Source of the DNA: a virus
Lineage: Duplodnaviria; Heunggongvirae; Uroviricota; Caudoviricetes
Direction: 5' to 3' (one strand)
DNA length: 34,379 nt
IMG/VR virus record: IMGVR_UViG_2778261181_000004
Each line of letters opens with the position of its first letter. Position 1 is the first letter of the stretch. The notes beneath the pieces are model-generated. The model searched no databases, was not told the DNA's origin, and saw only the letters and a program-made list of their open reading frames with translations. A program made the translations under genes and the position numbers. Shown here piece after piece: positions 9,554 through 33,717 of this stretch.

Positions 9554-10138
9554 GTGGGTAAAGAACCTGAATGGAAAGTTGATAAGCAACCAGCATGGCT
9601 GGTGGCAGCAATACGAAGAACGATTGCTGATTTACCTCATGGCTATGAGGAAGCAGCAGAAATTCTTGGTTTGTATAAATCTGATGATATCACCCCAGCA
9701 AAAGATCAATTGCATAACAGACTGCGTAGCGGTGGGGATCAAATTTTTCCACTTGAGTGGGCCATGGTTTTACAGGATGCCAGTGGTACCAGGCATGTAA
9801 CGGATGCAATAGCCCGTCGTAGTAATGGGGTGTTTGTGCCGCTGGTGGTCATTGATGACATTGACAATGGTGACATTAATCAGCGGCTGATGGAGTCAAT
9901 AGAATGGATTGGCAAGCATTCCCAGTACTTACGCAAGGCAACTGCTGATGGAGTTATTGACCAAGCTGAGCGTGAGCAAATCGAAGAGAACAGCTACCAA
10001 GTAATGGCGAAGTGGCAGGAGCATTTAACACTGTTATTTCGTGTTTTTTGTGCGCCGGAAAAGAGTAACGCCCGCGAGTGTGCAGCTCCGGGCGTCGTGG
10101 CGTCGATTGCTTCTGGTTGTGGAGAAACTAACGCATGA
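9554..10138 (+). CDS. CII-like regulatory protein (phage CP76 / YdaT-type family)
   Basis: Immediately downstream of the cro-like gene; preferred start GTG 9554 with GAGGG RBS 8 nt upstream (alternative ATGs at 9497 and 9509; ORF-track start 9440 overlaps cro). Confidence 0.6.
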
Positions 10139-20968: not shown

Positions 20969-21147
20969 AAAAAGGCTAGTTTTTGCATTTCCATGGCGGC
21001 GGCAGCATGTTTGGTAATTTATTGATAGTTAAAAGTTATTTCTCTTTTCACCTGTACAATATTTTTTTCTCCCTGTCATTAGACCAGTTTGCAATTAATT
21101 GAAATATATAAATAAACCTGATTTTCACCTGCCAGATGGAGTTGCTT

Positions 21148-21675
21148 ATGTCAAATGTGAGCGGGATCGGTGATGCTTATTACTGGAGTGTTTTTAAAAT
21201 CGCCGAGGCCTTTGGGCTTCACCGGGACACAGTAAAAAAACGGCTCCTCGCGGCCAACACTCCTGTGGCTGCGACTGTCAGGGGGAACCCCGTTTACGCC
21301 CTGCAGCATGTCGGGCCCGCCCTGTTTAGTGTGAAGCATGAGGCAGCAGACTCTGTTCATGATCCATCCCGTATGGAGCCGAAAGAGAGAAAGGACTGGT
21401 ACCAGTCTGAAAATGAAAGGATCAAGCTGGAAAAGGAGCAGCGAAAACTCATCCCAGTTGATGAAGTAGTCATCGTCTATTCGTCCATGAGAAAGGCTGT
21501 CGTCCAGGTTCTGGAGACAATTCCGGATGTTCTTGAACGCGATTGCGCCCTGACTCCTCAGGCCGTCGGCGTTGTACAGCAGGCCATTGATGACCTGCGA
21601 TACACTCTTCAGGAAAAATCCTACGAGGCTTGTGCTGCTGAATTAATTCCTGATGAGGAAGGAGAGAGTCTCTAG
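21148..21675 (+). CDS. Terminase small subunit (Nu1-like)
   Basis: ATG 21148 with GGAG 7 nt upstream; N-terminal HTH-like region; directly precedes the large subunit. Confidence 0.75.
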   Translation: MSNVSGIGDAYYWSVFKIAEAFGLHRDTVKKRLLAANTPVAATVRGNPVYALQHVGPALFSVKHEAADSVHDPSRMEPKERKDWYQSENERIKLEKEQRKLIPVDEVVIVYSSMRKAVVQVLETIPDVLERDCALTPQAVGVVQQAIDDLRYTLQEKSYEACAAELIPDEEGESL

Positions 21676-23992: not shown

Positions 23993-25500
23993 TGGCAATT
24001 CTTGATGATGTGATTGGCGTTTTTTCACCTGGATGGAAAGCGGCAAGGCTGCGTTCCCGTGCGGTGATCCAGGCTTATGAGGCCGTAAAAACGACGCGGA
24101 CACACAAAGCCCGGCGGGAAAACCGAACTGCCGACCAGTTAAGCCAGTACGGGGCCGTGTCGTTACGTGAGCAGGCCCGTTACCTTGATAACAACCACGA
24201 TCTGGTTATTGGTGTATTTGACAAGCTGGAAGAACGGGTGGTGGGGAAAAACGGGATTATTGTCGAGCCACATCCGGTATTACGCAATGGGGCCATTGCC
24301 CGTGACCTGGCAGCGGAGATACGCACCCGATGGAGTGAATGGTCTGTCAGTCCGGAAGTCACCGGGCAGTTCACCCGCCCGATGCTGGAACGTCTGATGC
24401 TGCGTACCTGGCTGCGCGATGGTGAGGTGTTTGCCCAGATGGTTTCCGGGCGCATAAACAGCCTGACGCCTTCTGCCGGTGTTCATTTCTGGCTGGAGGC
24501 GCTCGAGCCGGACTTTATTCCCATGACCAGTGATGAGAGCAACAGGCTGAATCAGGGCGTGTTTGTTGATGACTGGGGGCGTCCCGAAAAATATCTGGTG
24601 TATAAAAGCCGTCCCGTATCCGGACGGCAGATGGAAACCAAAGAAGTGGATGCAGAGCGAATGCTGCATCTTAAATTTGTTCGCCGTCTGCACCAGATGC
24701 GCGGGACGTCTTTGTTGTCCGGTGTGCTGATCCGCCTCAGTGCCCTGAAAGAGTATGAAGATTCTGAGCTGACTGCAGCAAGGATCGCCGCTGCTCTGGG
24801 GATGTACATCCGCAAAGGCGACGGGCAGAGCTATGAACCGGATGGTAATGGCAGCAAGGATAAGGAACGCGAGCTTACCATTCAGCCAGGCATTATTTAC
24901 GACGATCTGAAACCCGGCGAAGAAATCGGAATGGTGAAGTCGGATCGTCCCAATCCTAACCTTGAAACTTTTCGTAATGGTCAGTTGCGTGCCGTGGCGG
25001 CGGGCAGTCGTCTGAGTTTTTCCAGTACAGCGCGCAACTATAACGGCACTTACAGCGCCCAGCGTCAGGAGCTGGTTGAATCCACTGATGGCTACCTGAT
25101 CCTGCAGGACTGGTTTATTGGTGCCGTCACCCGCCCGATGTATCGTGCCTGGCTGAAACAGGCTGTGGCATCCGGTGTTATCAGACTACCCCGCGATCTT
25201 GACCGTTCTTCACTGTATACCGCGGTGTATTCCGGACCGGTGATGCCGTGGATTGACCCTGTTAAGGAGGCTGAGGCCTGGAAAATTCAGATTCGTGGTG
25301 GAGCAGCGACAGAATCAGACTGGGTACGTGCAGGTGGTCGTAATCCGGATGATGTCAAACGTCGGCGCAAGGCCGAAATTGATGAAAACCGCAAGCTGGA
25401 TCTGGTATTTGATACCGATCCGGCCAGTGATAAAGGAGGCAGCAGTGCCGCAACGAAACGACAGGAGCCGCAGCACACCGACGACCAGTCCGAAGAATAA
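23992..25500 (+). CDS. Portal protein (lambda gpB family)
   Basis: ATG 23992 overlapping the W stop (TGATG); about 500 aa; located between W and the protease-capsid gene. Confidence 0.8.
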   Translation: MAILDDVIGVFSPGWKAARLRSRAVIQAYEAVKTTRTHKARRENRTADQLSQYGAVSLREQARYLDNNHDLVIGVFDKLEERVVGKNGIIVEPHPVLRNGAIARDLAAEIRTRWSEWSVSPEVTGQFTRPMLERLMLRTWLRDGEVFAQMVSGRINSLTPSAGVHFWLEALEPDFIPMTSDESNRLNQGVFVDDWGRPEKYLVYKSRPVSGRQMETKEVDAERMLHLKFVRRLHQMRGTSLLSGVLIRLSALKEYEDSELTAARIAAALGMYIRKGDGQSYEPDGNGSKDKERELTIQPGIIYDDLKPGEEIGMVKSDRPNPNLETFRNGQLRAVAAGSRLSFSSTARNYNGTYSAQRQELVESTDGYLILQDWFIGAVTRPMYRAWLKQAVASGVIRLPRDLDRSSLYTAVYSGPVMPWIDPVKEAEAWKIQIRGGAATESDWVRAGGRNPDDVKRRRKAEIDENRKLDLVFDTDPASDKGGSSAATKRQEPQHTDDQSEE

Positions 25501-27472
25501 TTCCTGGTTCAGGATGCAGGCTGGTCACCAGAGTGACGCGGATATTTATATTTATGACGAGATTGGTTTCTGGGGTGTTACAGCGAAGCAGTTTATCAGT
25601 GATCTGAATGCACTGGGCGATATCACCCACATTAATCTCCATATCAATTCACCGGGTGGCGATGTCTTTGAAGGCATCGCCATTTTTAATGCGCTGAAAA
25701 CACATGGTGCGTCCATTACCGTTTATGTCGACGGTGTGGCGGCGTCAATGGCGTCGGTCATTGCGATGGTGGGAAACCCGGTCATTATGCCGGAAAACAC
25801 CTTCATGATGATTCATAAACCATTTGGCTTTACGGGCGGTGATGCGGAGGACATGCGCACCTATGCCGACCTGCTCGATAAAGTTGAGGCGGTTCTGTTA
25901 CCCGCTTATGCACAGAAAACCGGGAAAACCACCGATGAAATTGCTGCCATGCTGGCAGATGAGACCTGGATGTCCGGTGCCGAATGTCTGGCACATGGAT
26001 TTGCTGATCAGGTGACGCCAGCCGTTAAGGCAATGGCATGTATTCAGTCAAAACGTACAGAGGAATTTAAAAAGATGCCGGAATCCATTCGAAACATGAT
26101 TACTCCGCCACGCAACAGTGCTCCACGCGTACAGGATAATGAACCTGCAGCCTCCCGGACGCCAGTGCAGGCAGCAGCACCCATGGTGGATGAAAACAGT
26201 ATCCGTGCGCAGGTACTGGCAGAGCAAAAAGCGCGTGTAAACGGTATTAATGATCTGTTTGCCATGTTTGGCGGGCGTTATCAGACGCTGCAGGCTCAGT
26301 GTCTTGCCGATCCTGAATGTTCGCTGGAGCAGGCCCGCGAAAAGCTGTTGAACGAGATGGGGCGCGAGTCCACGCCATCCAATAAAAATACCCCGGCTCA
26401 TATTTATGCCGGTAACGGTAATTTTGTGGGGGACGGGATCCGCCAGGCGCTGATGGCGCGTGCCGGATTTGAAAAAACCGAACGTGATAATGTCTACAAC
26501 GGGATGACCCTGCGTGAATATGCCCGTATGTCACTGACTGAACGGGGTATTGGGGTTTCCAGTTATAACCCGATGCAGATGGTCGGTGCGGCGTTCACAC
26601 ACAGTACGTCTGACTTCGGTAATATTCTGCTGGATGTTGCGAACAAAGCCATTCTGCAGGGCTGGGAAGATGCTCCTGAAACCTATGAACAGTGGACGCG
26701 GAAAGGTCAGTTGTCTGATTTTAAAATTGCCCATCGTGTGGGTATGGGGGGCTTCAGTGCTCTGCGTCAGGTGCGTGAAGGGGCGGAATATAAATACGTC
26801 ACCACCGGAGATAAACAGGCCACTATTGCACTGGCGACCTATGGCGAGCTGTTCAGTATCACCCGTCAGGCCATTATCAATGATGATCTGAATATGCTGA
26901 CCGATGTCCCGATGAAACTGGGCCGTGCGGCGAAATCCACTATTGCCGATCTGGTTTATGCCATTCTGACGTCTAACCCGAAAATCTCCACAGATAATGT
27001 AAGTCTGTTCGATAAAGCGAAACATGCAAACGTACTGGAGAGCGCTGCAATGGACGTGGCATCGCTGGATAAAGCCCGCCAGTTGATGCGCGTTCAGAAA
27101 GAGGGGGAGCGTCATCTGAATATTCGTCCTGCGTTCGTACTGGTACCGACGGCGATGGAGTCTGTTGCTAACCAGGTCATTCGCTCCTCAAGTGTCAAGG
27201 GGGCTGACATTAACGCCGGTATTATTAACCCGGTGAAAGATTTTGCGACCGTTATTGCAGAGCCTCGTCTTGATGATAACAGCCAGACCACCTTCTACCT
27301 GGCTGCGTCAAAAGGCTCCGATACGATTGAAGTGGCTTATCTCAACGGTGTGGATACGCCATATATTGATCAGATGGAGGGCTTCAGTGTGGATGGCGTG
27401 ACAACGAAAGTGCGTATTGACGCCGGTGTCGCGCCAGTTGATCACCGCGGTCTGGTGAAATGTACGGCGTAA
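25445..27472 (+). CDS. Fused head maturation protease (ClpP/S14-like) - scaffold-like linker - major capsid protein
   Basis: Single ORF with N-terminal ClpP-like domain, Ala/Gln-rich helical middle region and C-terminal capsid-like domain; preferred start GTG 25445 with AAAGGAGG 5 nt upstream, overlapping the portal 3' end (ORF-track start 25253 is deeper inside portal). Confidence 0.75.
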   Translation: MPQRNDRSRSTPTTSPKNNSWFRMQAGHQSDADIYIYDEIGFWGVTAKQFISDLNALGDITHINLHINSPGGDVFEGIAIFNALKTHGASITVYVDGVAASMASVIAMVGNPVIMPENTFMMIHKPFGFTGGDAEDMRTYADLLDKVEAVLLPAYAQKTGKTTDEIAAMLADETWMSGAECLAHGFADQVTPAVKAMACIQSKRTEEFKKMPESIRNMITPPRNSAPRVQDNEPAASRTPVQAAAPMVDENSIRAQVLAEQKARVNGINDLFAMFGGRYQTLQAQCLADPECSLEQAREKLLNEMGRESTPSNKNTPAHIYAGNGNFVGDGIRQALMARAGFEKTERDNVYNGMTLREYARMSLTERGIGVSSYNPMQMVGAAFTHSTSDFGNILLDVANKAILQGWEDAPETYEQWTRKGQLSDFKIAHRVGMGGFSALRQVREGAEYKYVTTGDKQATIALATYGELFSITRQAIINDDLNMLTDVPMKLGRAAKSTIADLVYAILTSNPKISTDNVSLFDKAKHANVLESAAMDVASLDKARQLMRVQKEGERHLNIRPAFVLVPTAMESVANQVIRSSSVKGADINAGIINPVKDFATVIAEPRLDDNSQTTFYLAASKGSDTIEVAYLNGVDTPYIDQMEGFSVDGVTTKVRIDAGVAPVDHRGLVKCTA

Positions 27473-29160: not shown

Positions 29161-29904
29161 ATGACCACACCAAATCCACTGGCAAAGACGAAAGGTGCGG
29201 GGACGACGTTCTGGATGTATACCGGCAACGGCGATGCGTTTGCGAATCCTTTGTCGGACACTGACTGGCTGCGTCTTGCGATGGTGAAGGATCTGCAACC
29301 TGGCGAAATGACCGCTGATGCAGAAGATGACACTTATCTCGATGATGAAGATGCAGACTGGAAAACAACAACCCAGGGGCAGAAATCCGTCGGTGATACT
29401 TCGGCGACGCTGGCCTGGCGTCCGGGTGACAGCGGACAGAAAAAACTGGTTCAGTTGTTCGACTCCGGTGAAGTCTGCGCGTTTCGTATCAAATATCCCA
29501 ACGGTACTGTTGATGTTTTCCGTGGCTGGCTGAGTTCACTGGGTAAAACCATTGCCTCAAAAGACGTGATGACCCGCACCGTGAAAATCAGCGGTGTGGG
29601 GCGTCCATATCTGGCAGAGGAGGGCACTGAAACCGTGGGCGTTACCGGGCTGACGGTGGCACCGGCATCCGCCAGTGTCAATGTGGGAGCAACCACCACG
29701 CTGACCTTTACAGTAAAACCTGACGGAGCCAGTGACAAAGCGATCAGTGTGCATTCGACAGATCCACAGACTGCCACGGTGACCCTGAACGGGCTTGTGG
29801 CCACGGTGAAAGGCGTGAAGCAGGGCAGTGTCAGCATTGTGGGCATGACTTCTGACGGCGATTTTGTGGCAGTGGCTACGGTGGCTGTCAGCGCCGCAGG
29901 TTAA
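29161..29904 (+). CDS. V: Major tail protein V with C-terminal Ig-like (Big_2) domain
   Basis: AAGGAGG RBS; KGAGTTFWMYTGNGDAFANPLSD ... YLDDEDADW ... FPNGTVDVFRGW closely parallels lambda V. Confidence 0.9.
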   Translation: MTTPNPLAKTKGAGTTFWMYTGNGDAFANPLSDTDWLRLAMVKDLQPGEMTADAEDDTYLDDEDADWKTTTQGQKSVGDTSATLAWRPGDSGQKKLVQLFDSGEVCAFRIKYPNGTVDVFRGWLSSLGKTIASKDVMTRTVKISGVGRPYLAEEGTETVGVTGLTVAPASASVNVGATTTLTFTVKPDGASDKAISVHSTDPQTATVTLNGLVATVKGVKQGSVSIVGMTSDGDFVAVATVAVSAAG

Positions 29905-29924: not shown

Positions 29925-29948
29925 GCCCCGGTTATCCGGGGCTTTTTT
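29925..29948 (+). terminator. Intrinsic terminator immediately after the major tail gene
   Basis: Perfect 7-bp stem GCCCCGG/CCGGGGC, TTAT loop, then TTTTTT. Confidence 0.7.
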
Positions 29949-29964
29949 GCAGGTGGAGAACATG

Positions 29965-30351
29965 ATGTTTCTGAAACAGGGCACGTTTAATTATGAAAAG
30001 CAGTCCGTGGTGCTCAGTGAGCTGTCCGGGCTGCAGAGAATTGAATATCTGGCGTTTGTTCAGCAGCGAACGGCAAAGTTTGATGCCGAAGAGGGAGAAC
30101 TGCCGGAGGCTGAACGACAGATTGCTTTTCTGCGGATGGGGATGGATATCAATGCCTGGCTGGTTTCCCGCTCACTGTGGAATGCGGAACAGTCTCAGGA
30201 TGTTGAGACGCTTTGCGCATCCGTTATTACAACATGGTCGTATGATGCCCTGGGAGCGGGGGCGGAGATGGTTCTGTCGCTGAGCGGTATGGGAGCCATT
30301 GAGAATGCCGGGGATTTGGAGCATGAGGTGCTGACGCCGGAAAAGTCCTGA
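29965..30351 (+). CDS. G: Tail assembly chaperone G
   Basis: MFLKQG start (lambda G starts MFLK); VLSELSGLQRIEYLAF matches lambda G LSELSALQRIEHLAL; GGAG RBS 6 nt upstream. Confidence 0.85.
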   Translation: MFLKQGTFNYEKQSVVLSELSGLQRIEYLAFVQQRTAKFDAEEGELPEAERQIAFLRMGMDINAWLVSRSLWNAEQSQDVETLCASVITTWSYDALGAGAEMVLSLSGMGAIENAGDLEHEVLTPEKS

Positions 30352-30359
30352 CGCGGGAA

Positions 30360-30689
30360 ATGCAGTTTGTCATGCGGCTTGCCCGGGAGTTCCGGCGGGC
30401 AGACTGGCGGCGGATGCTGTCGGAAATGTCGGCCACTGAGCTTGGTGAGTGGGGCGATTATTTCCGGATGCAGAGCTTCAGTGATGTGTGGATGGATGCG
30501 CAGTTTGCCTCGCTGAAGGCATTGATCGTGAGAATGGTGTCCGGTAGCAGTGATGCTGCGGTGGCTGATTTCAGCCTTTTACCGGAAGAGAACGGGATAC
30601 CGGAGCGAACGGACGAAGAACTGATGCATCTTGGGGAAGGTATTTCCGGAGGTGTGCGTTATGGACCAGATAGCCAACCTGGTCATTGA
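30360..30689 (+). CDS. T: Tail assembly protein T region; expected to be made as a G-T fusion by -1 programmed frameshifting near the end of G (T frame opens at 30327)
   Basis: -1 frame relative to G is open from 30327 through 30689; candidate slip site G GAA AAG at 30339-30345; coordinates given for the in-frame ATG, the fusion would span 29965-30689. Confidence 0.65.
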   Translation: MQFVMRLAREFRRADWRRMLSEMSATELGEWGDYFRMQSFSDVWMDAQFASLKALIVRMVSGSSDAAVADFSLLPEENGIPERTDEELMHLGEGISGGVRYGPDSQPGH

Positions 30690-33600
30690 TTTGGGGATTG
30701 ATGCGGCAGAGTTTAAAAATGAAATTCCCCGTATCAAAAACCTTCTGAATGGTGCAGCCAGCGATGCAGAACGGTCTTCTGCCCGTATGCAGCGTTTTAT
30801 GGAGCGTCAGACTCAGGCCGCCCGGCAGACAATGCAGGCGGCTTCTTCGGCTGCAACAGCCGCATCCGTCCATGCGCAGACGGTGGAGAAGAGCGCACAG
30901 GCTCATGAACGCATGGCCCGCGAGGTGGAGCAAACCCGCCAGCGTATGGAGGCACTGAGCCAGAAAATGCGCGAGGAACAGGCGCAGGCCATGGCTCTGG
31001 CGGAGGCTCAGGATAAAGCGGCTGCCGCGTTTTATCGTCAGATTGACAGTGTGAAACAGGCCAGTGCGGGGCTGCAGGAATTACAGCGTATTCAGCAGCA
31101 GATCCGACAGGCCAGAAACAGTGGCGGGATTGGTCAGCAGGATTATCTGGCGCTGATTTCTGAGGTTACGGCGAAAACCCGTGTTCTTACGCAGGCTGAG
31201 GCAGAGGCTACCCGACAGAAAGTGGCGTTTATCCGTCAGCTTAAAGAGCAGGCAACCCGCCAGAATCTTTCTTCTTCTGAGTTGCTTCGTGCTAAGGCTG
31301 CTCAGCTGGGGGTAAGCAGTGCTGCAGAAGTGTATATCCGCAAAATGGAGCAGGCAGGAAAAGCCACGCATTCGCTGGGTCTGAAAAGTGCAGCGGCCCG
31401 CCAGGAGATAGGCGTTCTGATAGGTGAACTGGCTCGCGGCAATTTAGGGGCGCTGAGGGGATCCGGGATAACGCTGGCTAACCGTGCCGGATGGATAGAC
31501 ACACTGATGTCACCGAAAGGCATGATGCTGGGCGGGGTTATTGGCGGTATTGCCGCGGCTGTCTATGGTCTGGGTAAAGCCTGGTATGACGGTCAGAAGG
31601 AGGGGGAAGAATTTAACCGCCAGCTGTCGCTGACGGGGCATTATGCCGGAGTCACTGCCGGGCAGCTGTGGACGCTCAGTCGTGCTATTTCCGGGAATGG
31701 TATCACGCAACATGCTGCAGCCGGTGCGCTGGCTCAGGTGGTGGGGAGTGGTGCATTTCGTGGAAACGATATCGGTATGGTGGCGAGAGCTGCCGCACAG
31801 ATGGAGCGATCGGTTGGCCAGTCGGTCAGCGATACCATAAGTCAGTTTAAGCGGCTGAAGGATGATCCTGTAAATGCCGCGAAGGCTCTGGACAATGAGC
31901 TGCATTTTCTTACTGCCACTCAGCTTGAGCAGATACGCGTCCTTGGGGAACAGGGGCGGTCCAGTGATGCGGCACGGATAGCCATGTCTGCACTGGCAGA
32001 GGAAACCAGTCGGCGTACTGCGGATATTGATAATAACCTCAATGCGCTGGGTAGTACGCTGCAAACCTTGTCTGACTGGTGGAAGCAGTTCTGGGATGCG
32101 GCCATGAATATTGGTCGTGAAGATTCGCTGGATGCGCAGATTGCCACTTTGCAGGAGAAAGTGTCGCGGGCGAAAAGACTCCCCTGGACGGCATCATCTT
32201 CTCAGGTTGAATACGATCAGCAGCGTCTTAACGATCTTCAGGAGAAAAAACGCCAGAAGGATTTGCAGGATGCAAAAGAGCAGGCAGAGCGGAATTATCA
32301 GGAGCAACAGAAACGCCGTAATGCTGAAAATGCTGCACTGAATCGGATGAATGAAACGGAAGCTGCACGACATCAGCGTGAAATTGCGCGTATTAATGCC
32401 ATGCAGTACGCCGATCAGGCTGTCAGGGATGCTGCGATACAACGTGAAAATGAACGTTACGAGAAAGCCCTGGCATCCGGTAAGAAAAAAACACGCGAAA
32501 CCCGTAATGATGAGGCCACCCGGTTATTGCTGCAGTACAGCCAGCAACAGGCACAGGTGGAAGGACAGATTGCTGCTGCAAGACAGTCAGCAGGCATTGC
32601 CACTGACAGGATGACAGAAGCGCATAAACAGCTTCTGGCTCTGCAGCAGCGCATCAGCGATCTGGACGGGAAAAAACTGACGGCAGATGAAAAGAGTGTG
32701 CTGGCCCGTAAAGATGAACTGATTCAGGCACTGACGCTGCTGGATGTAAAACAGCAGGAGCTTCAGAAACAGACGGCACTCAACGATCTGAAGAAAAAAA
32801 CAATTCAGCTGACCAGTCAACTGGCTGAAGAAGAGCGCGCTCAGCGTCAGCAACATGACCTGGATATCGCCACGGTGGGTATGGGTGATCAGCAGCGGCA
32901 GCGATATCAGGTACAACTGAGTCTTCGCCAGAAATACCAGCAACAGCTGGAGCAGTTGAGGCGGGATAGTGAGCAGAAAGGGACATATAACACGGATGAC
33001 TACAGAAAGGCCGAGCAGGCGCTGACGGAGAGCCTGAACCGACAACTGAATGAGAATCGCCGTTACTGGCAACAGCTTGAAATTGCTCAGGGTGACTGGA
33101 AAAACGGAGTCCTGCGTGCACTCCAGAATGTCACTGAGAATGCGGATAACACAGCCGGGACAGTGGAACAGTTGTTCACGTCTGCGTTCAGTAGCATGAG
33201 TGACTGGCTGGCGACATTCTGTACTACAGGCAAACTCAATTTCAAATCCTTCACCTCTTCTGTGCTGTCAGATATGTCCAGAATCATGGCTCAGATAGCT
33301 TTAATGAAAGCGGTAAAAGGCATTGCTTCCGCGCTGCCTTTTGATTTTGTAGCTAATGCTGATGGCGGTGTTTATCAGTCGGCTGATTTGAGTCGCTACA
33401 GTGGCACGGTGGTTAACCGTCCGACGTTTTTTGCTTTTGCAAAAGGCGCGGGTGTGATGGGGGAAGCTGGACCTGAAGCCATTCTGCCACTGCGTCGTGG
33501 TGCTGACGGTAAGCTGGGGGTTGTGGCGGATATTGGTGGTTCAGGTATGGCGATGTTTGCCCCGCAGTACAACATCGAGATCAATAACGATGGCACGAAC

Positions 33601-33717
33601 GGGCAGATAGGTCCGGCTGCCCTGAAGGTGGTTTATGACCTCGGGAAAAAAGCGGCAGCGGACTTTATGCAACAGCAGGCCCGTGATGGTGGTCGGTTAA
33701 GTGGAGCATATCGGTAA
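30661..33717 (+). CDS. H: Tail tape measure protein H
   Basis: ATG 30661 with GGAGG RBS; C-terminus NNDGTNGQIGPAALKVVYD ... DGGRLSG nearly identical in pattern to lambda H C-terminus; long coiled-coil middle. Confidence 0.9.
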   Translation: MDQIANLVIDLGIDAAEFKNEIPRIKNLLNGAASDAERSSARMQRFMERQTQAARQTMQAASSAATAASVHAQTVEKSAQAHERMAREVEQTRQRMEALSQKMREEQAQAMALAEAQDKAAAAFYRQIDSVKQASAGLQELQRIQQQIRQARNSGGIGQQDYLALISEVTAKTRVLTQAEAEATRQKVAFIRQLKEQATRQNLSSSELLRAKAAQLGVSSAAEVYIRKMEQAGKATHSLGLKSAAARQEIGVLIGELARGNLGALRGSGITLANRAGWIDTLMSPKGMMLGGVIGGIAAAVYGLGKAWYDGQKEGEEFNRQLSLTGHYAGVTAGQLWTLSRAISGNGITQHAAAGALAQVVGSGAFRGNDIGMVARAAAQMERSVGQSVSDTISQFKRLKDDPVNAAKALDNELHFLTATQLEQIRVLGEQGRSSDAARIAMSALAEETSRRTADIDNNLNALGSTLQTLSDWWKQFWDAAMNIGREDSLDAQIATLQEKVSRAKRLPWTASSSQVEYDQQRLNDLQEKKRQKDLQDAKEQAERNYQEQQKRRNAENAALNRMNETEAARHQREIARINAMQYADQAVRDAAIQRENERYEKALASGKKKTRETRNDEATRLLLQYSQQQAQVEGQIAAARQSAGIATDRMTEAHKQLLALQQRISDLDGKKLTADEKSVLARKDELIQALTLLDVKQQELQKQTALNDLKKKTIQLTSQLAEEERAQRQQHDLDIATVGMGDQQRQRYQVQLSLRQKYQQQLEQLRRDSEQKGTYNTDDYRKAEQALTESLNRQLNENRRYWQQLEIAQGDWKNGVLRALQNVTENADNTAGTVEQLFTSAFSSMSDWLATFCTTGKLNFKSFTSSVLSDMSRIMAQIALMKAVKGIASALPFDFVANADGGVYQSADLSRYSGTVVNRPTFFAFAKGAGVMGEAGPEAILPLRRGADGKLGVVADIGGSGMAMFAPQYNIEINNDGTNGQIGPAALKVVYDLGKKAAADFMQQQARDGGRLSGAYR

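What the first reader, a model, noticed from the sequence alone, without database searches (positions are those of the whole stretch)
30327..30360. G-T programmed -1 frameshift with a non-canonical candidate slip site
The T frame is open only from 30327, inside the last 8 codons of G, so any G-T fusion must shift within 30327-30348. The only plausible slippery sequence is G GAA AAG (30339-30345) rather than lambda's G GGA AAG. A-site Lys slippage (AAG to AAA) is retained, but P-site re-pairing would need a G-U wobble.
Basis: partly seen in the sequence, partly recalled or inferred. Interest (0 to 1): 0.5.

Follow-up and report, generated by a model that had tools for sequence, protein, structure and literature searches.

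The report
Lambda-type G-T tail chaperone frameshift site
This is the usual phage tail-assembly "G-T" ribosomal frameshift site, using the slippery sequence G GAA AAG, which is common among lambda-like phages and was already annotated as the slip site in phage N15, so it is real but ordinary.

Summary
Gene G (29962-30351) ends ...ACG CCG GAA AAG TCC TGA. The -1 (T) frame opens at 30327. G GAA AAG (30339-30345) is the only shift-prone motif in the 22-nt overlap.

Comparative evidence supports the frameshift reading:
- The heptamer sits exactly where lambda has G GGA AAG, 11 codons before the conserved LAREF motif of T.
- In 102 distinct junctions from 270 loci, an in-phase A_AAG is always present at that spot.
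- Among 15 divergent representatives, heptamer positions 2 and 4-7 are invariant, while neighbouring synonymous sites vary freely.
- The base before GAA is G in five different codons, which codon usage does not explain.
- ATG 30360, the annotated T start, is kept in only 2 of 15 lineages.

I found no conserved downstream RNA structure. An upstream Shine-Dalgarno-like GAGGTG (30325-30330) is specific to this lineage.

The variant is not new. The N15 GenBank record annotates GGAAAAG as "slippery sequence for -1 translational frameshift", and Gifsy-1 carries the identical CCGGAAAAGTCCTGA. In a heptamer-agnostic virus-contig sample, GGAAAAG (65) outnumbered GGGAAAG (43).

Frameshift efficiency is not measured here. 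In vitro, this heptamer is reported as poorly slippery. Interest is low to moderate.

The parts
29962..30351 (+). Gene G, the tail assembly chaperone (129 aa; stop TGA at 30349-30351)
   Evidence: Pfam PF06894 Phage_TAC_2, 1.9e-39. Start as annotated in the Ayreon and mEp460 records.
30325..30330 (+). Shine-Dalgarno-like GAGGTG, 8 nt 5' of the heptamer. A candidate stimulator specific to this lineage.
   Evidence: Anti-SD duplex -9.2 kcal/mol against a background mean of -3.1. Close relatives carry AAGGAGGTG or GGAGG. Many other G GAA AAG lineages have nothing here. Inferred, not shown.
30327..30348 (+). G/T overlap: the only stretch in which a -1 shift can join G to T
   Evidence: The -1 frame has TGA at 30324-26 and the G stop is at 30349.
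30339..30345 (+). Slip heptamer G GAA AAG (0-frame Glu-Lys; -1 frame GGA AAA)
   Evidence: The only Z_ZZN motif in the overlap. Positionally homologous to lambda G GGA AAG. Conserved in 96 of 102 unique junctions. Columns 2 and 4-7 invariant in 15 divergent representatives. The identical heptamer is annotated as the slippery sequence in N15.
30345..30689 (+). T segment read in the -1 frame after the shift (VLTREMQFVMRLAREF...; 114 aa; stop at 30687-30689). The predicted GT fusion is 128 + 114 = 242 aa.
   Evidence: Pfam PF06223 Phage_tail_T, 5e-15. Fusion translated.
30360..30362 (+). ATG used by database annotations as an independent T start
   Evidence: PGAP and GenBank records start T here. 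The A of this ATG is present in only 2 of 15 representatives (column 22). Gifsy-1 has CTG here.
30661..33717 (+). Tape measure gene H, overlapping the end of T. This is the protein to which G and GT bind in lambda.
   Evidence: Pfam PF06791, PF09718 and PF24622. Start as annotated in relatives.
29161..29904 (+). Major tail tube gene V with a C-terminal Ig-like domain, upstream neighbour of G
   Evidence: Pfam PF16461 (1.2e-66) plus Big_2.

Best explanation
A small fraction of ribosomes translating G slip back one base on G GAA AAG (30339-30345). They then continue in the T frame and make a 242-aa G-T fusion alongside abundant 129-aa G.

Proposed steps:
- tRNA-Lys, the single mnm5s2UUU species of Enterobacterales, re-pairs from AAG to the cognate AAA.
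- tRNA-Glu in the P site re-pairs from GAA to GGA, with G-C, G-U and A-U pairs. This is why the base before GAA is kept as G.
- The next codon read is GTC (Val), giving ...TPEK-VLTREMQF....

By analogy with lambda, the G part of GT binds the tape measure protein and the T part recruits the tail tube protein. The G:GT ratio is then fixed by the slip frequency.

What is shown here: gene identities, frame geometry, positional homology with lambda, and nucleotide-level selection on the heptamer.
What is inferred: that the shift occurs, that both tRNAs slip, its efficiency, and the downstream role of GT.
For: 1. Context: V, G, T and H identified by Pfam.

2. Positional homology: after the Lys codon, the -1 frame reads VLTREMQFVMRLAREF here and VFDGELSFALKLAREM in lambda. 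These align without gaps, so the heptamers coincide.

3. Presence of the motif: all 102 unique junction sequences from 270 loci carry an in-phase A_AAG exactly 11 codons before the LAREF motif. 96 are G GAA AAG, 5 are G GGA AAG and 1 is A GAA AAG.

4. Conservation: among 15 representatives below 92% nucleotide identity, heptamer columns 2 and 4-7 are invariant. Column 1 is G in 14 of 15. Third codon positions of the T frame just downstream are nearly random.

5. Codon usage does not explain it:
- G-ending codons for the same amino acid make up only 9-62% in the same ORFs.
- AAG is usually the minority Lys codon there.
- The codon before the heptamer is CCG, GCG, CTG, TTG or GTG, all G-ending.

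6. Covariation: where the P-site codon is AAA (A AAA AAG clade), the preceding codon ends in A (TCA, GCA). Position 1 / position 2 counts are G-G 68, A-G 3, A-A 5, G-A 0.

7. ATG 30360 is not conserved, and Gifsy-1 lacks it.

8. Prior annotation: N15 marks the same heptamer as the slippery sequence. Gifsy-1 annotates T as made by frameshifting.

9. Viability: plaque-forming phages carry this site, including Ayreon, mEp460, cdtI, mEp043 and N15.

10. Host tRNA: the shiftiness of A_AAG with the single E. coli tRNA-Lys is reviewed in PMC5009743.
Against: There is no protein-level or reporter evidence for this heptamer in any phage that I could find.

In a reconstituted E. coli system, AUG GAA AAG gave mainly 0-frame product at all EF-G concentrations. 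The authors describe it as unfavourable for slippage (PMC6924986).

The A_AAG tetramer without a stimulator was barely above background in vivo, about 0.15% against 0.11%. It needed a strong pseudoknot to reach 5.6% (PMC4066793).

I found no conserved downstream structure (RNAalifold about 0). The upstream SD-like element is not conserved across G GAA AAG lineages. The efficiency may therefore be well below lambda's.

Three lineages have A GAA AAG, so P-site re-pairing is not absolutely required.
Confidence: 0.82

Rival explanations
1. Single-tRNA slippage. Only tRNA-Lys in the A site moves (A_AAG), as at hexanucleotide NNA_AAG sites. The P-site tRNA-Glu does not re-pair, and the preceding G is irrelevant to the mechanism. 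A GT fusion is still made.
For: A GAA AAG occurs in three representative lineages. The middle-position G-U is regarded as a mismatch in vitro. NNA_AAG sites such as CGA_AAG are used naturally (review PMC5009743).
Against: Position 1 is G in 14 of 15 representatives and in five different codons. This holds despite G3 usage of 9-62% for those amino acids in the same ORFs. Position 1 covaries with position 2 (G-G, A-A, never G-A). Known tetramer and hexamer sites need a strong 3' stimulator, and none is conserved here.
Confidence: 0.15
2. No frameshift. T is made on its own from ATG 30360, perhaps by re-initiation after the G stop 8 nt upstream, as current database annotations imply.
For: The ATG exists and gives a 109-aa ORF holding the whole PF06223 domain. 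PGAP and GenBank records annotate T this way, with no join.
Against: The ATG is present in only 2 of 15 divergent lineages, and Gifsy-1 has CTG. There is no good Shine-Dalgarno sequence at a proper distance (sequence). This does not explain the invariant synonymous positions of the heptamer. In lambda, T is made only as GT (established knowledge: Levin, Hendrix and Casjens 1993, as summarised in PMC5009743).
Confidence: 0.05
3. Transcriptional slippage, or a chance motif in a decaying prophage. The heptamer would have no recoding role.
For: GGAAAAG is frequent in the window: 13 copies against 5.75 expected.
Against: A run of four A is far shorter than known RNA-polymerase slippage tracts (established knowledge). 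The motif is fixed in phase and position across genera. The same module is present in viable phages and in 1848 of 5426 complete E. coli genomes.
Confidence: 0.02

Closest known systems
Phage lambda G / G-T programmed -1 frameshift (G GGA AAG)
   Same: Same gene order (V, G, T, H), the same Pfam families, and T in the -1 frame. The slip site is at the identical position, 11 codons before LAREF/LAREM. The A-site slip is the same AAG to AAA. No conserved stimulatory structure was detected.
   Different: The P-site codon is GAA (Glu) rather than GGA (Gly). Re-pairing after the slip therefore has a middle-position G-U instead of full pairing. G is only about 31-33% identical. The G stop is 1 codon after the heptamer here, against 5 in lambda.
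Phage N15 genes 14/15 (annotated slippery sequence GGAAAAG)
   Same: Identical heptamer in the identical phase and position. The GenBank record explicitly annotates it as 'slippery sequence for -1 translational frameshift'.
   Different: Different preceding codon (GCG, against CCG here). The stop is 5 codons downstream. There is no SD-like element upstream (for the N15-like clade). I know of no measurement of its efficiency.
Gifsy-1 STM2596/STM2595
   Same: Identical 15 nt, CCG GAA AAG TCC TGA, although G is only 55% identical. T is annotated as 'part of gpG by translational frameshifting'.
   Different: No ATG at the position of 30360. The acidic linker before the site is different.
A_AAG tetramer / NNA_AAG hexamer sites (IS3, IS1222, Bacillus cdd)
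   Same: They rely on tRNA-Lys slipping from AAG to AAA (PMC5009743; PMC4066793).
   Different: Those sites depend on a strong 3' pseudoknot or hairpin. None is conserved here. Here the base 5' of the P-site codon is also under selection.
Actinobacteriophage tail chaperone site G GGG GAA
   Same: The same proposed re-pairing of tRNA-Glu from GAA to GGA through a G-U pair, in the same class of gene (PRFect paper, PMC10885494).
   Different: There the Glu codon is the second codon of the heptamer, not the first. The hosts and gene families also differ.
E. coli dnaX (SD-like element + A AAA AAG + hairpin)
   Same: A possible upstream SD-like stimulator at a comparable distance: GAGGTG is 8 nt 5' of the heptamer here. 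Sharma et al. searched 6-17 nt upstream.
   Different: There is no downstream hairpin. The SD-like element is not conserved across the family.

Membership tests
Lambda-type G / G-T tail assembly chaperone with programmed -1 frameshift | Two short ORFs lie between the major tail tube gene and the tape measure gene | tested here: met
   V 29161-29904 (PF16461), G 29962-30351, T frame 30327-30689, H from 30661 (PF06791, PF09718).
Lambda-type G / G-T tail assembly chaperone with programmed -1 frameshift | The upstream ORF belongs to the gpG family and the downstream ORF to the gpT family | tested here: met
   PF06894 at 1.9e-39 and PF06223 at 5.1e-15.
Lambda-type G / G-T tail assembly chaperone with programmed -1 frameshift | The downstream ORF is in the -1 frame, overlaps the 3' end of G, and has no conserved start of its own | tested here: met
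   22-nt overlap. ATG 30360 is kept in 2 of 15 lineages only.
Lambda-type G / G-T tail assembly chaperone with programmed -1 frameshift | A canonical X_XXY_YYZ slippery heptamer lies in the overlap | tested here: not met
   No canonical heptamer in 30327-30348. G GAA AAG departs at the third base.
Lambda-type G / G-T tail assembly chaperone with programmed -1 frameshift | A shift-prone site at the position homologous to lambda's slip site, under nucleotide-level selection | tested here: met
   Gapless alignment with lambda. Conservation in 102 of 102 junctions, with synonymous positions fixed. The same heptamer is annotated in N15.
Lambda-type G / G-T tail assembly chaperone with programmed -1 frameshift | A G-T fusion protein is made at a few per cent of G and is needed for tail assembly | not testable with these tools
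   Needs a reporter assay, mass spectrometry or phage genetics.
Single-tRNA A_AAG frameshift sites (IS3 / IS1222 type) | An A_AAG motif in the 0 frame | tested here: met
   GAA AAG at 30340-30345.
Single-tRNA A_AAG frameshift sites (IS3 / IS1222 type) | A strong 3' stimulatory structure a few nucleotides downstream | tested here: not met
   The RNAalifold consensus over 15 representatives is empty in the first 60 nt. Single-sequence z-scores run from -1.2 to +1.9. The local fold of the window has z = -1.9, and it pairs the slip site itself.
dnaX-type cassette | An upstream SD-like element at about 6-17 nt | tested here: inconclusive
   GAGGTG is present here and SD-like elements occur in closely related lineages. 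Many G GAA AAG lineages have none. The class means are -4.2 and -3.65 kcal/mol, against a background of -3.07.

The most novel reading that the evidence does not exclude
G GAA AAG, not lambda's textbook G GGA AAG, may be the predominant and possibly ancestral slip site of lambda-type G-T modules. It may also sustain a physiologically adequate frameshift (around 1% or more) in vivo with no stimulatory structure. That would hold despite a middle-position G-U in the P site, and despite being classed as 'unfavourable' in a reconstituted system. If so, it is a widespread natural test case for how much P-site mispairing bacterial ribosomes tolerate, and for how low a GT:G ratio tail assembly accepts.
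Probability: 0.35. Interest if true: 0.45.

Novelty: already known. Interest (0 to 1): 0.25.

Why it matters
Practical value:
- This module sits in about a third of complete E. coli genomes (1848 of 5426). PGAP and most phage records annotate G and T as separate genes with no slippage. The real product, a 242-aa GT fusion, is therefore missing from protein databases.
- Motif-based frameshift finders that require XXXYYYZ will miss it.

Scientific value:
- The comparative data show selection on a heptamer with a non-Watson-Crick P-site re-pairing.
- Lambda's canonical heptamer appears nested within G GAA AAG diversity.
- This gives recoding researchers a natural, easily manipulated pair (GAA against GGA) for measuring the cost of a middle-position G-U.

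None of this changes the known picture of tail assembly.

Tried and rejected
1. Downstream stimulatory RNA structure. The single-sequence fold of 30339-30440 (z = -1.9) pairs the slip site itself. Rejected as a conserved feature.

2. Upstream SD-like element as a general compensator for the weaker heptamer. The class means differ little, and many G GAA AAG lineages have none. Kept only as a lineage-specific candidate.

3. The heptamer as a ribosome-binding site for independent T initiation. No conserved start codon lies at a suitable distance. Rejected.

4. Codon bias as the cause of the conserved G before GAA and of AAG. Rejected by the usage figures from the same ORFs.

5. The first virus-contig scan, using the window's own G, returned only near-identical E. 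coli prophages. It was uninformative for conservation, so I moved to species-representative genomes and divergent queries and to a heptamer-agnostic pattern scan.

6. Literature:
- Licznar et al. 2003 (values for NNA_AAG, including GAA_AAG) and Xu, Hendrix and Duda 2004 (table of slip sites) are not held.
- Full-text searches for GGAAAAG or 'G GAA AAG' with frameshift terms found only Peng et al. 2019 as relevant.
- The Podospora hit was a primer sequence.
- The Gifsy and N15 text searches gave nothing useful.

7. Stop-codon proximity as a stimulator. The distance from heptamer to G stop is 0, 1 or 5 codons in both heptamer classes. No association.

Full report
**What is in the sequence**

The region lies in the late operon of a lambdoid phage or prophage. 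It is 99.9% identical to Escherichia phage Ayreon and about 98% identical to mEp460 and phage cdtI.

Gene assignments from Pfam:
- 29161-29904: lambda-type tail tube protein with an Ig-like domain.
- 29962-30351: gpG tail assembly chaperone (PF06894, 1.9e-39).
- The -1 frame downstream: gpT domain (PF06223, 5e-15).
- From 30661: tape measure protein.

Read directly and by script:
- G ends GAG GTG CTG ACG CCG GAA AAG TCC TGA, with the stop at 30349-51.
- The -1 frame is closed by TGA at 30324-26 and open from 30327 to 30689.
- The overlap is 22 nt. It holds no canonical X_XXY_YYZ heptamer and exactly one Z_ZZN tetramer, A_AAG, within G GAA AAG at 30339-30345.

The heptamer itself is common in the window (13 copies against 5.75 expected). 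Only its phase and position carry weight.

**Homology with lambda's slip site**

Lambda reads GCG GGA AAG TGT..., followed in the -1 frame by VFDGELSFALKLAREM. The window reads CCG GAA AAG TCC..., followed by VLTREMQFVMRLAREF. The two align without gaps. The heptamers therefore occupy the same position and differ by one base, G to A at heptamer position 3.

Gifsy-1 has a G protein only 55% identical to this one. It carries the identical 15 nt, CCG GAA AAG TCC TGA, and has CTG where the window has ATG 30360. Its T ORF is annotated as 'part of bacteriophage tail assembly chaperone gpG by translational frameshifting'.

**Conservation**

Among 120 listed database homologues of G, most end in ...PEK followed by S, P or F; the remainder are truncated or fused sequences and one variant ending PYKS. 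The linker just before this motif varies freely.

I collected DNA from 33 loci in species-representative genomes. These span Escherichia, Shigella, Citrobacter, Xenorhabdus, Proteus, Morganella, Serratia, Edwardsiella, Erwinia, Enterobacter and Kosakonia, among others. I added several sets of viral contigs.

Results across 102 unique junction sequences from 270 loci:
- Every one has an in-phase A_AAG exactly 11 codons before the LAREF motif of T.
- 96 are G GAA AAG, 5 are G GGA AAG and 1 is A GAA AAG.

Results in 15 representatives below 92% nucleotide identity:
- Heptamer columns 2 and 4-7 are invariant.
- Column 1 is G in 14 of 15. Column 3 is A in 12 and G in 3.
- Third positions of the T-frame codons immediately downstream are close to saturated.

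Codon usage does not explain this:
- In the same ORFs, G-ending codons make up only 9-62% for the amino acid concerned.
- AAG is usually the minority Lys codon there.
- The naive products of these probabilities are 10^-7 and 10^-10. These ignore shared ancestry and are only indicative.

The codon before the heptamer is CCG, GCG, CTG, TTG or GTG. That is four amino acids and five codons, all ending in G. In the clade that uses A AAA AAG, the preceding codon ends in A (TCA, GCA). Counts for position 1 / position 2 are G-G 68, A-G 3, A-A 5 and G-A 0. This is the pattern expected if the P-site tRNA has to re-pair in the -1 frame.

**How common the variant is, and whether it is known**

I ran a heptamer-agnostic pattern, RRRAAAG plus invariant T-motif bases, over IMG/VR.

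| Heptamer | Contigs |
|---|---|
| GGAAAAG | 65 |
| GGGAAAG | 43 |
| AAAAAAG | 9 |
| AGAAAAG | 2 |
| AGGAAAG | 1 |

Other phages checked:
- mEp043 and a Klebsiella phage carry GCG GAA AAG.
- An Stx2a phage has GCG GGA AAG.
- CP-1639 has TCA AAA AAG.

I built a neighbour-joining tree of the T domain with 46 representatives. It places G GAA AAG at the root set and needs at least 6 heptamer changes. Lambda's G GGA AAG is nested inside this diversity. The caveats are a short protein, midpoint rooting, and sampling partly driven by my own queries.

Most importantly, the GenBank record of phage N15 carries a misc_feature, 'slippery sequence for -1 translational frameshift', at 10027-10033. The bases there are GGAAAAG, in the context ACT GCG GAA AAG CCC. 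The non-canonical heptamer is therefore an already recognised, predicted slip site of this gene pair.

What databases lack is the joined CDS:
- The Ayreon, mEp460 and Tritos records list G and T separately.
- PGAP annotation in E. coli does the same.
- The module is present in 1848 of 5426 complete E. coli genomes.

**Mechanism**

The best-supported reading is a tandem -1 slip:
- tRNA-Lys moves from AAG to AAA. E. coli has a single tRNA-Lys and A_AAG is the most shift-prone tetramer there (PMC5009743; PMC4066793).
- tRNA-Glu moves from GAA to GGA with a middle-position G-U.
- The product is ...TPEK-VLTREMQF..., a 242-aa fusion.

The same GAA-to-GGA re-pairing has been proposed for the G GGG GAA sites of actinobacteriophage tail chaperones (PMC10885494).

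Efficiency is the open point:
- In a reconstituted E. coli system, AUG GAA AAG gave mainly 0-frame product. The authors call it unfavourable, whereas G GGA AAG shifted readily (PMC6924986).
- In vivo, A_AAG without a stimulator was near background, and it reached 5.6% only with the IS3 pseudoknot.

I found no conserved downstream structure.

The window has an SD-like GAGGTG at 30325-30330, 8 nt upstream of the heptamer. Close relatives have AAGGAGGTG or GGAGG there. The N15/Enterobacter-type lineages with the same heptamer have nothing comparable. It is at most a lineage-specific enhancer.

The phages may therefore run on a lower GT:G ratio than lambda's roughly 1:30 (ratio from PMC5009743). 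Alternatively, the heptamer may perform better in vivo than the in vitro data suggest. Neither can be decided here.

**Rivals**

- Independent initiation of T at ATG 30360 is what current annotations imply. However, the ATG is kept in only 2 of 15 lineages and is absent in Gifsy-1. It lacks a well-placed Shine-Dalgarno sequence, and this reading leaves the heptamer's fixed synonymous positions unexplained.
- A-site-only slippage remains possible as a sub-mechanism, because three lineages have A GAA AAG. The selection on the preceding G argues that P-site re-pairing contributes.
- Transcriptional slippage on four A's, and a chance motif, are both implausible given the conservation.

**Verdict**

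It is an instance of a well-known system. Its 'non-canonical' heptamer is common and was already annotated in N15.

Remaining value:
- correcting annotation, since the GT fusion is missing from databases;
- a natural GAA/GGA pair for measuring tolerance of P-site mispairing.

Interest is 0.25.

Noticed in passing
window 29925-29948: A terminator-like hairpin, GCCCCGG-TTAT-CCGGGGC followed by T6, lies between the tail tube gene V and G. The same spot is annotated as a terminator or stem-loop in Ayreon, mEp460 and N15. It may lower transcription of G, T and H relative to V.
   Followed up: partly
window 30325-30330: An SD-like GAGGTG lies 8 nt upstream of the slip heptamer. Related contigs have AAGGAGGTG (L384) or GGAGG (L307) at the same place. 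N15/Enterobacter-type lineages with the same heptamer have none.
   Followed up: partly
window 25253-27472: A single long ORF combines a ClpP-type protease domain (PF00574) with a capsid protein domain (PF25209). This is a fused prohead protease and major capsid gene. It overlaps the end of the portal ORF in the mechanical ORF list.
   Followed up: partly
window 21429-21435, and 11 other sites: GGAAAAG occurs 13 times in the window against 5.75 expected from shuffles. By hand count, the copy at 21429 is in the G_GAA_AAG phase of ORF 21136-21675. I did not check whether any of these shift.
   Followed up: no
database proteins P0032 and P0046: Two database proteins are single-ORF G-T fusions (215 and 212 aa, carrying both PF06894 and PF06223). 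They were created by internal deletions that remove the end of G and the slip region. They may be natural deletion variants or assembly artefacts.
   Followed up: no
L245 (IMG/VR contig), about 1041-1391: In this contig the T domain lies in the +1 frame relative to the G-frame stop, not the -1 frame. This points to an indel near the junction. It could be a sequencing error or a variant.
   Followed up: no
L102, L345, L378: Three lineages, including Morganella, have GCA GAA AAG (A GAA AAG). P-site re-pairing there would be worse still. They would be informative for testing A-site-only slippage.
   Followed up: partly
L276, L374, L387 (CP-1639-type Stx phages): A sister clade of lambda's T uses A AAA AAG at the same position, with the preceding codon ending in A. 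At least three heptamers are therefore interchangeable at this junction.
   Followed up: partly
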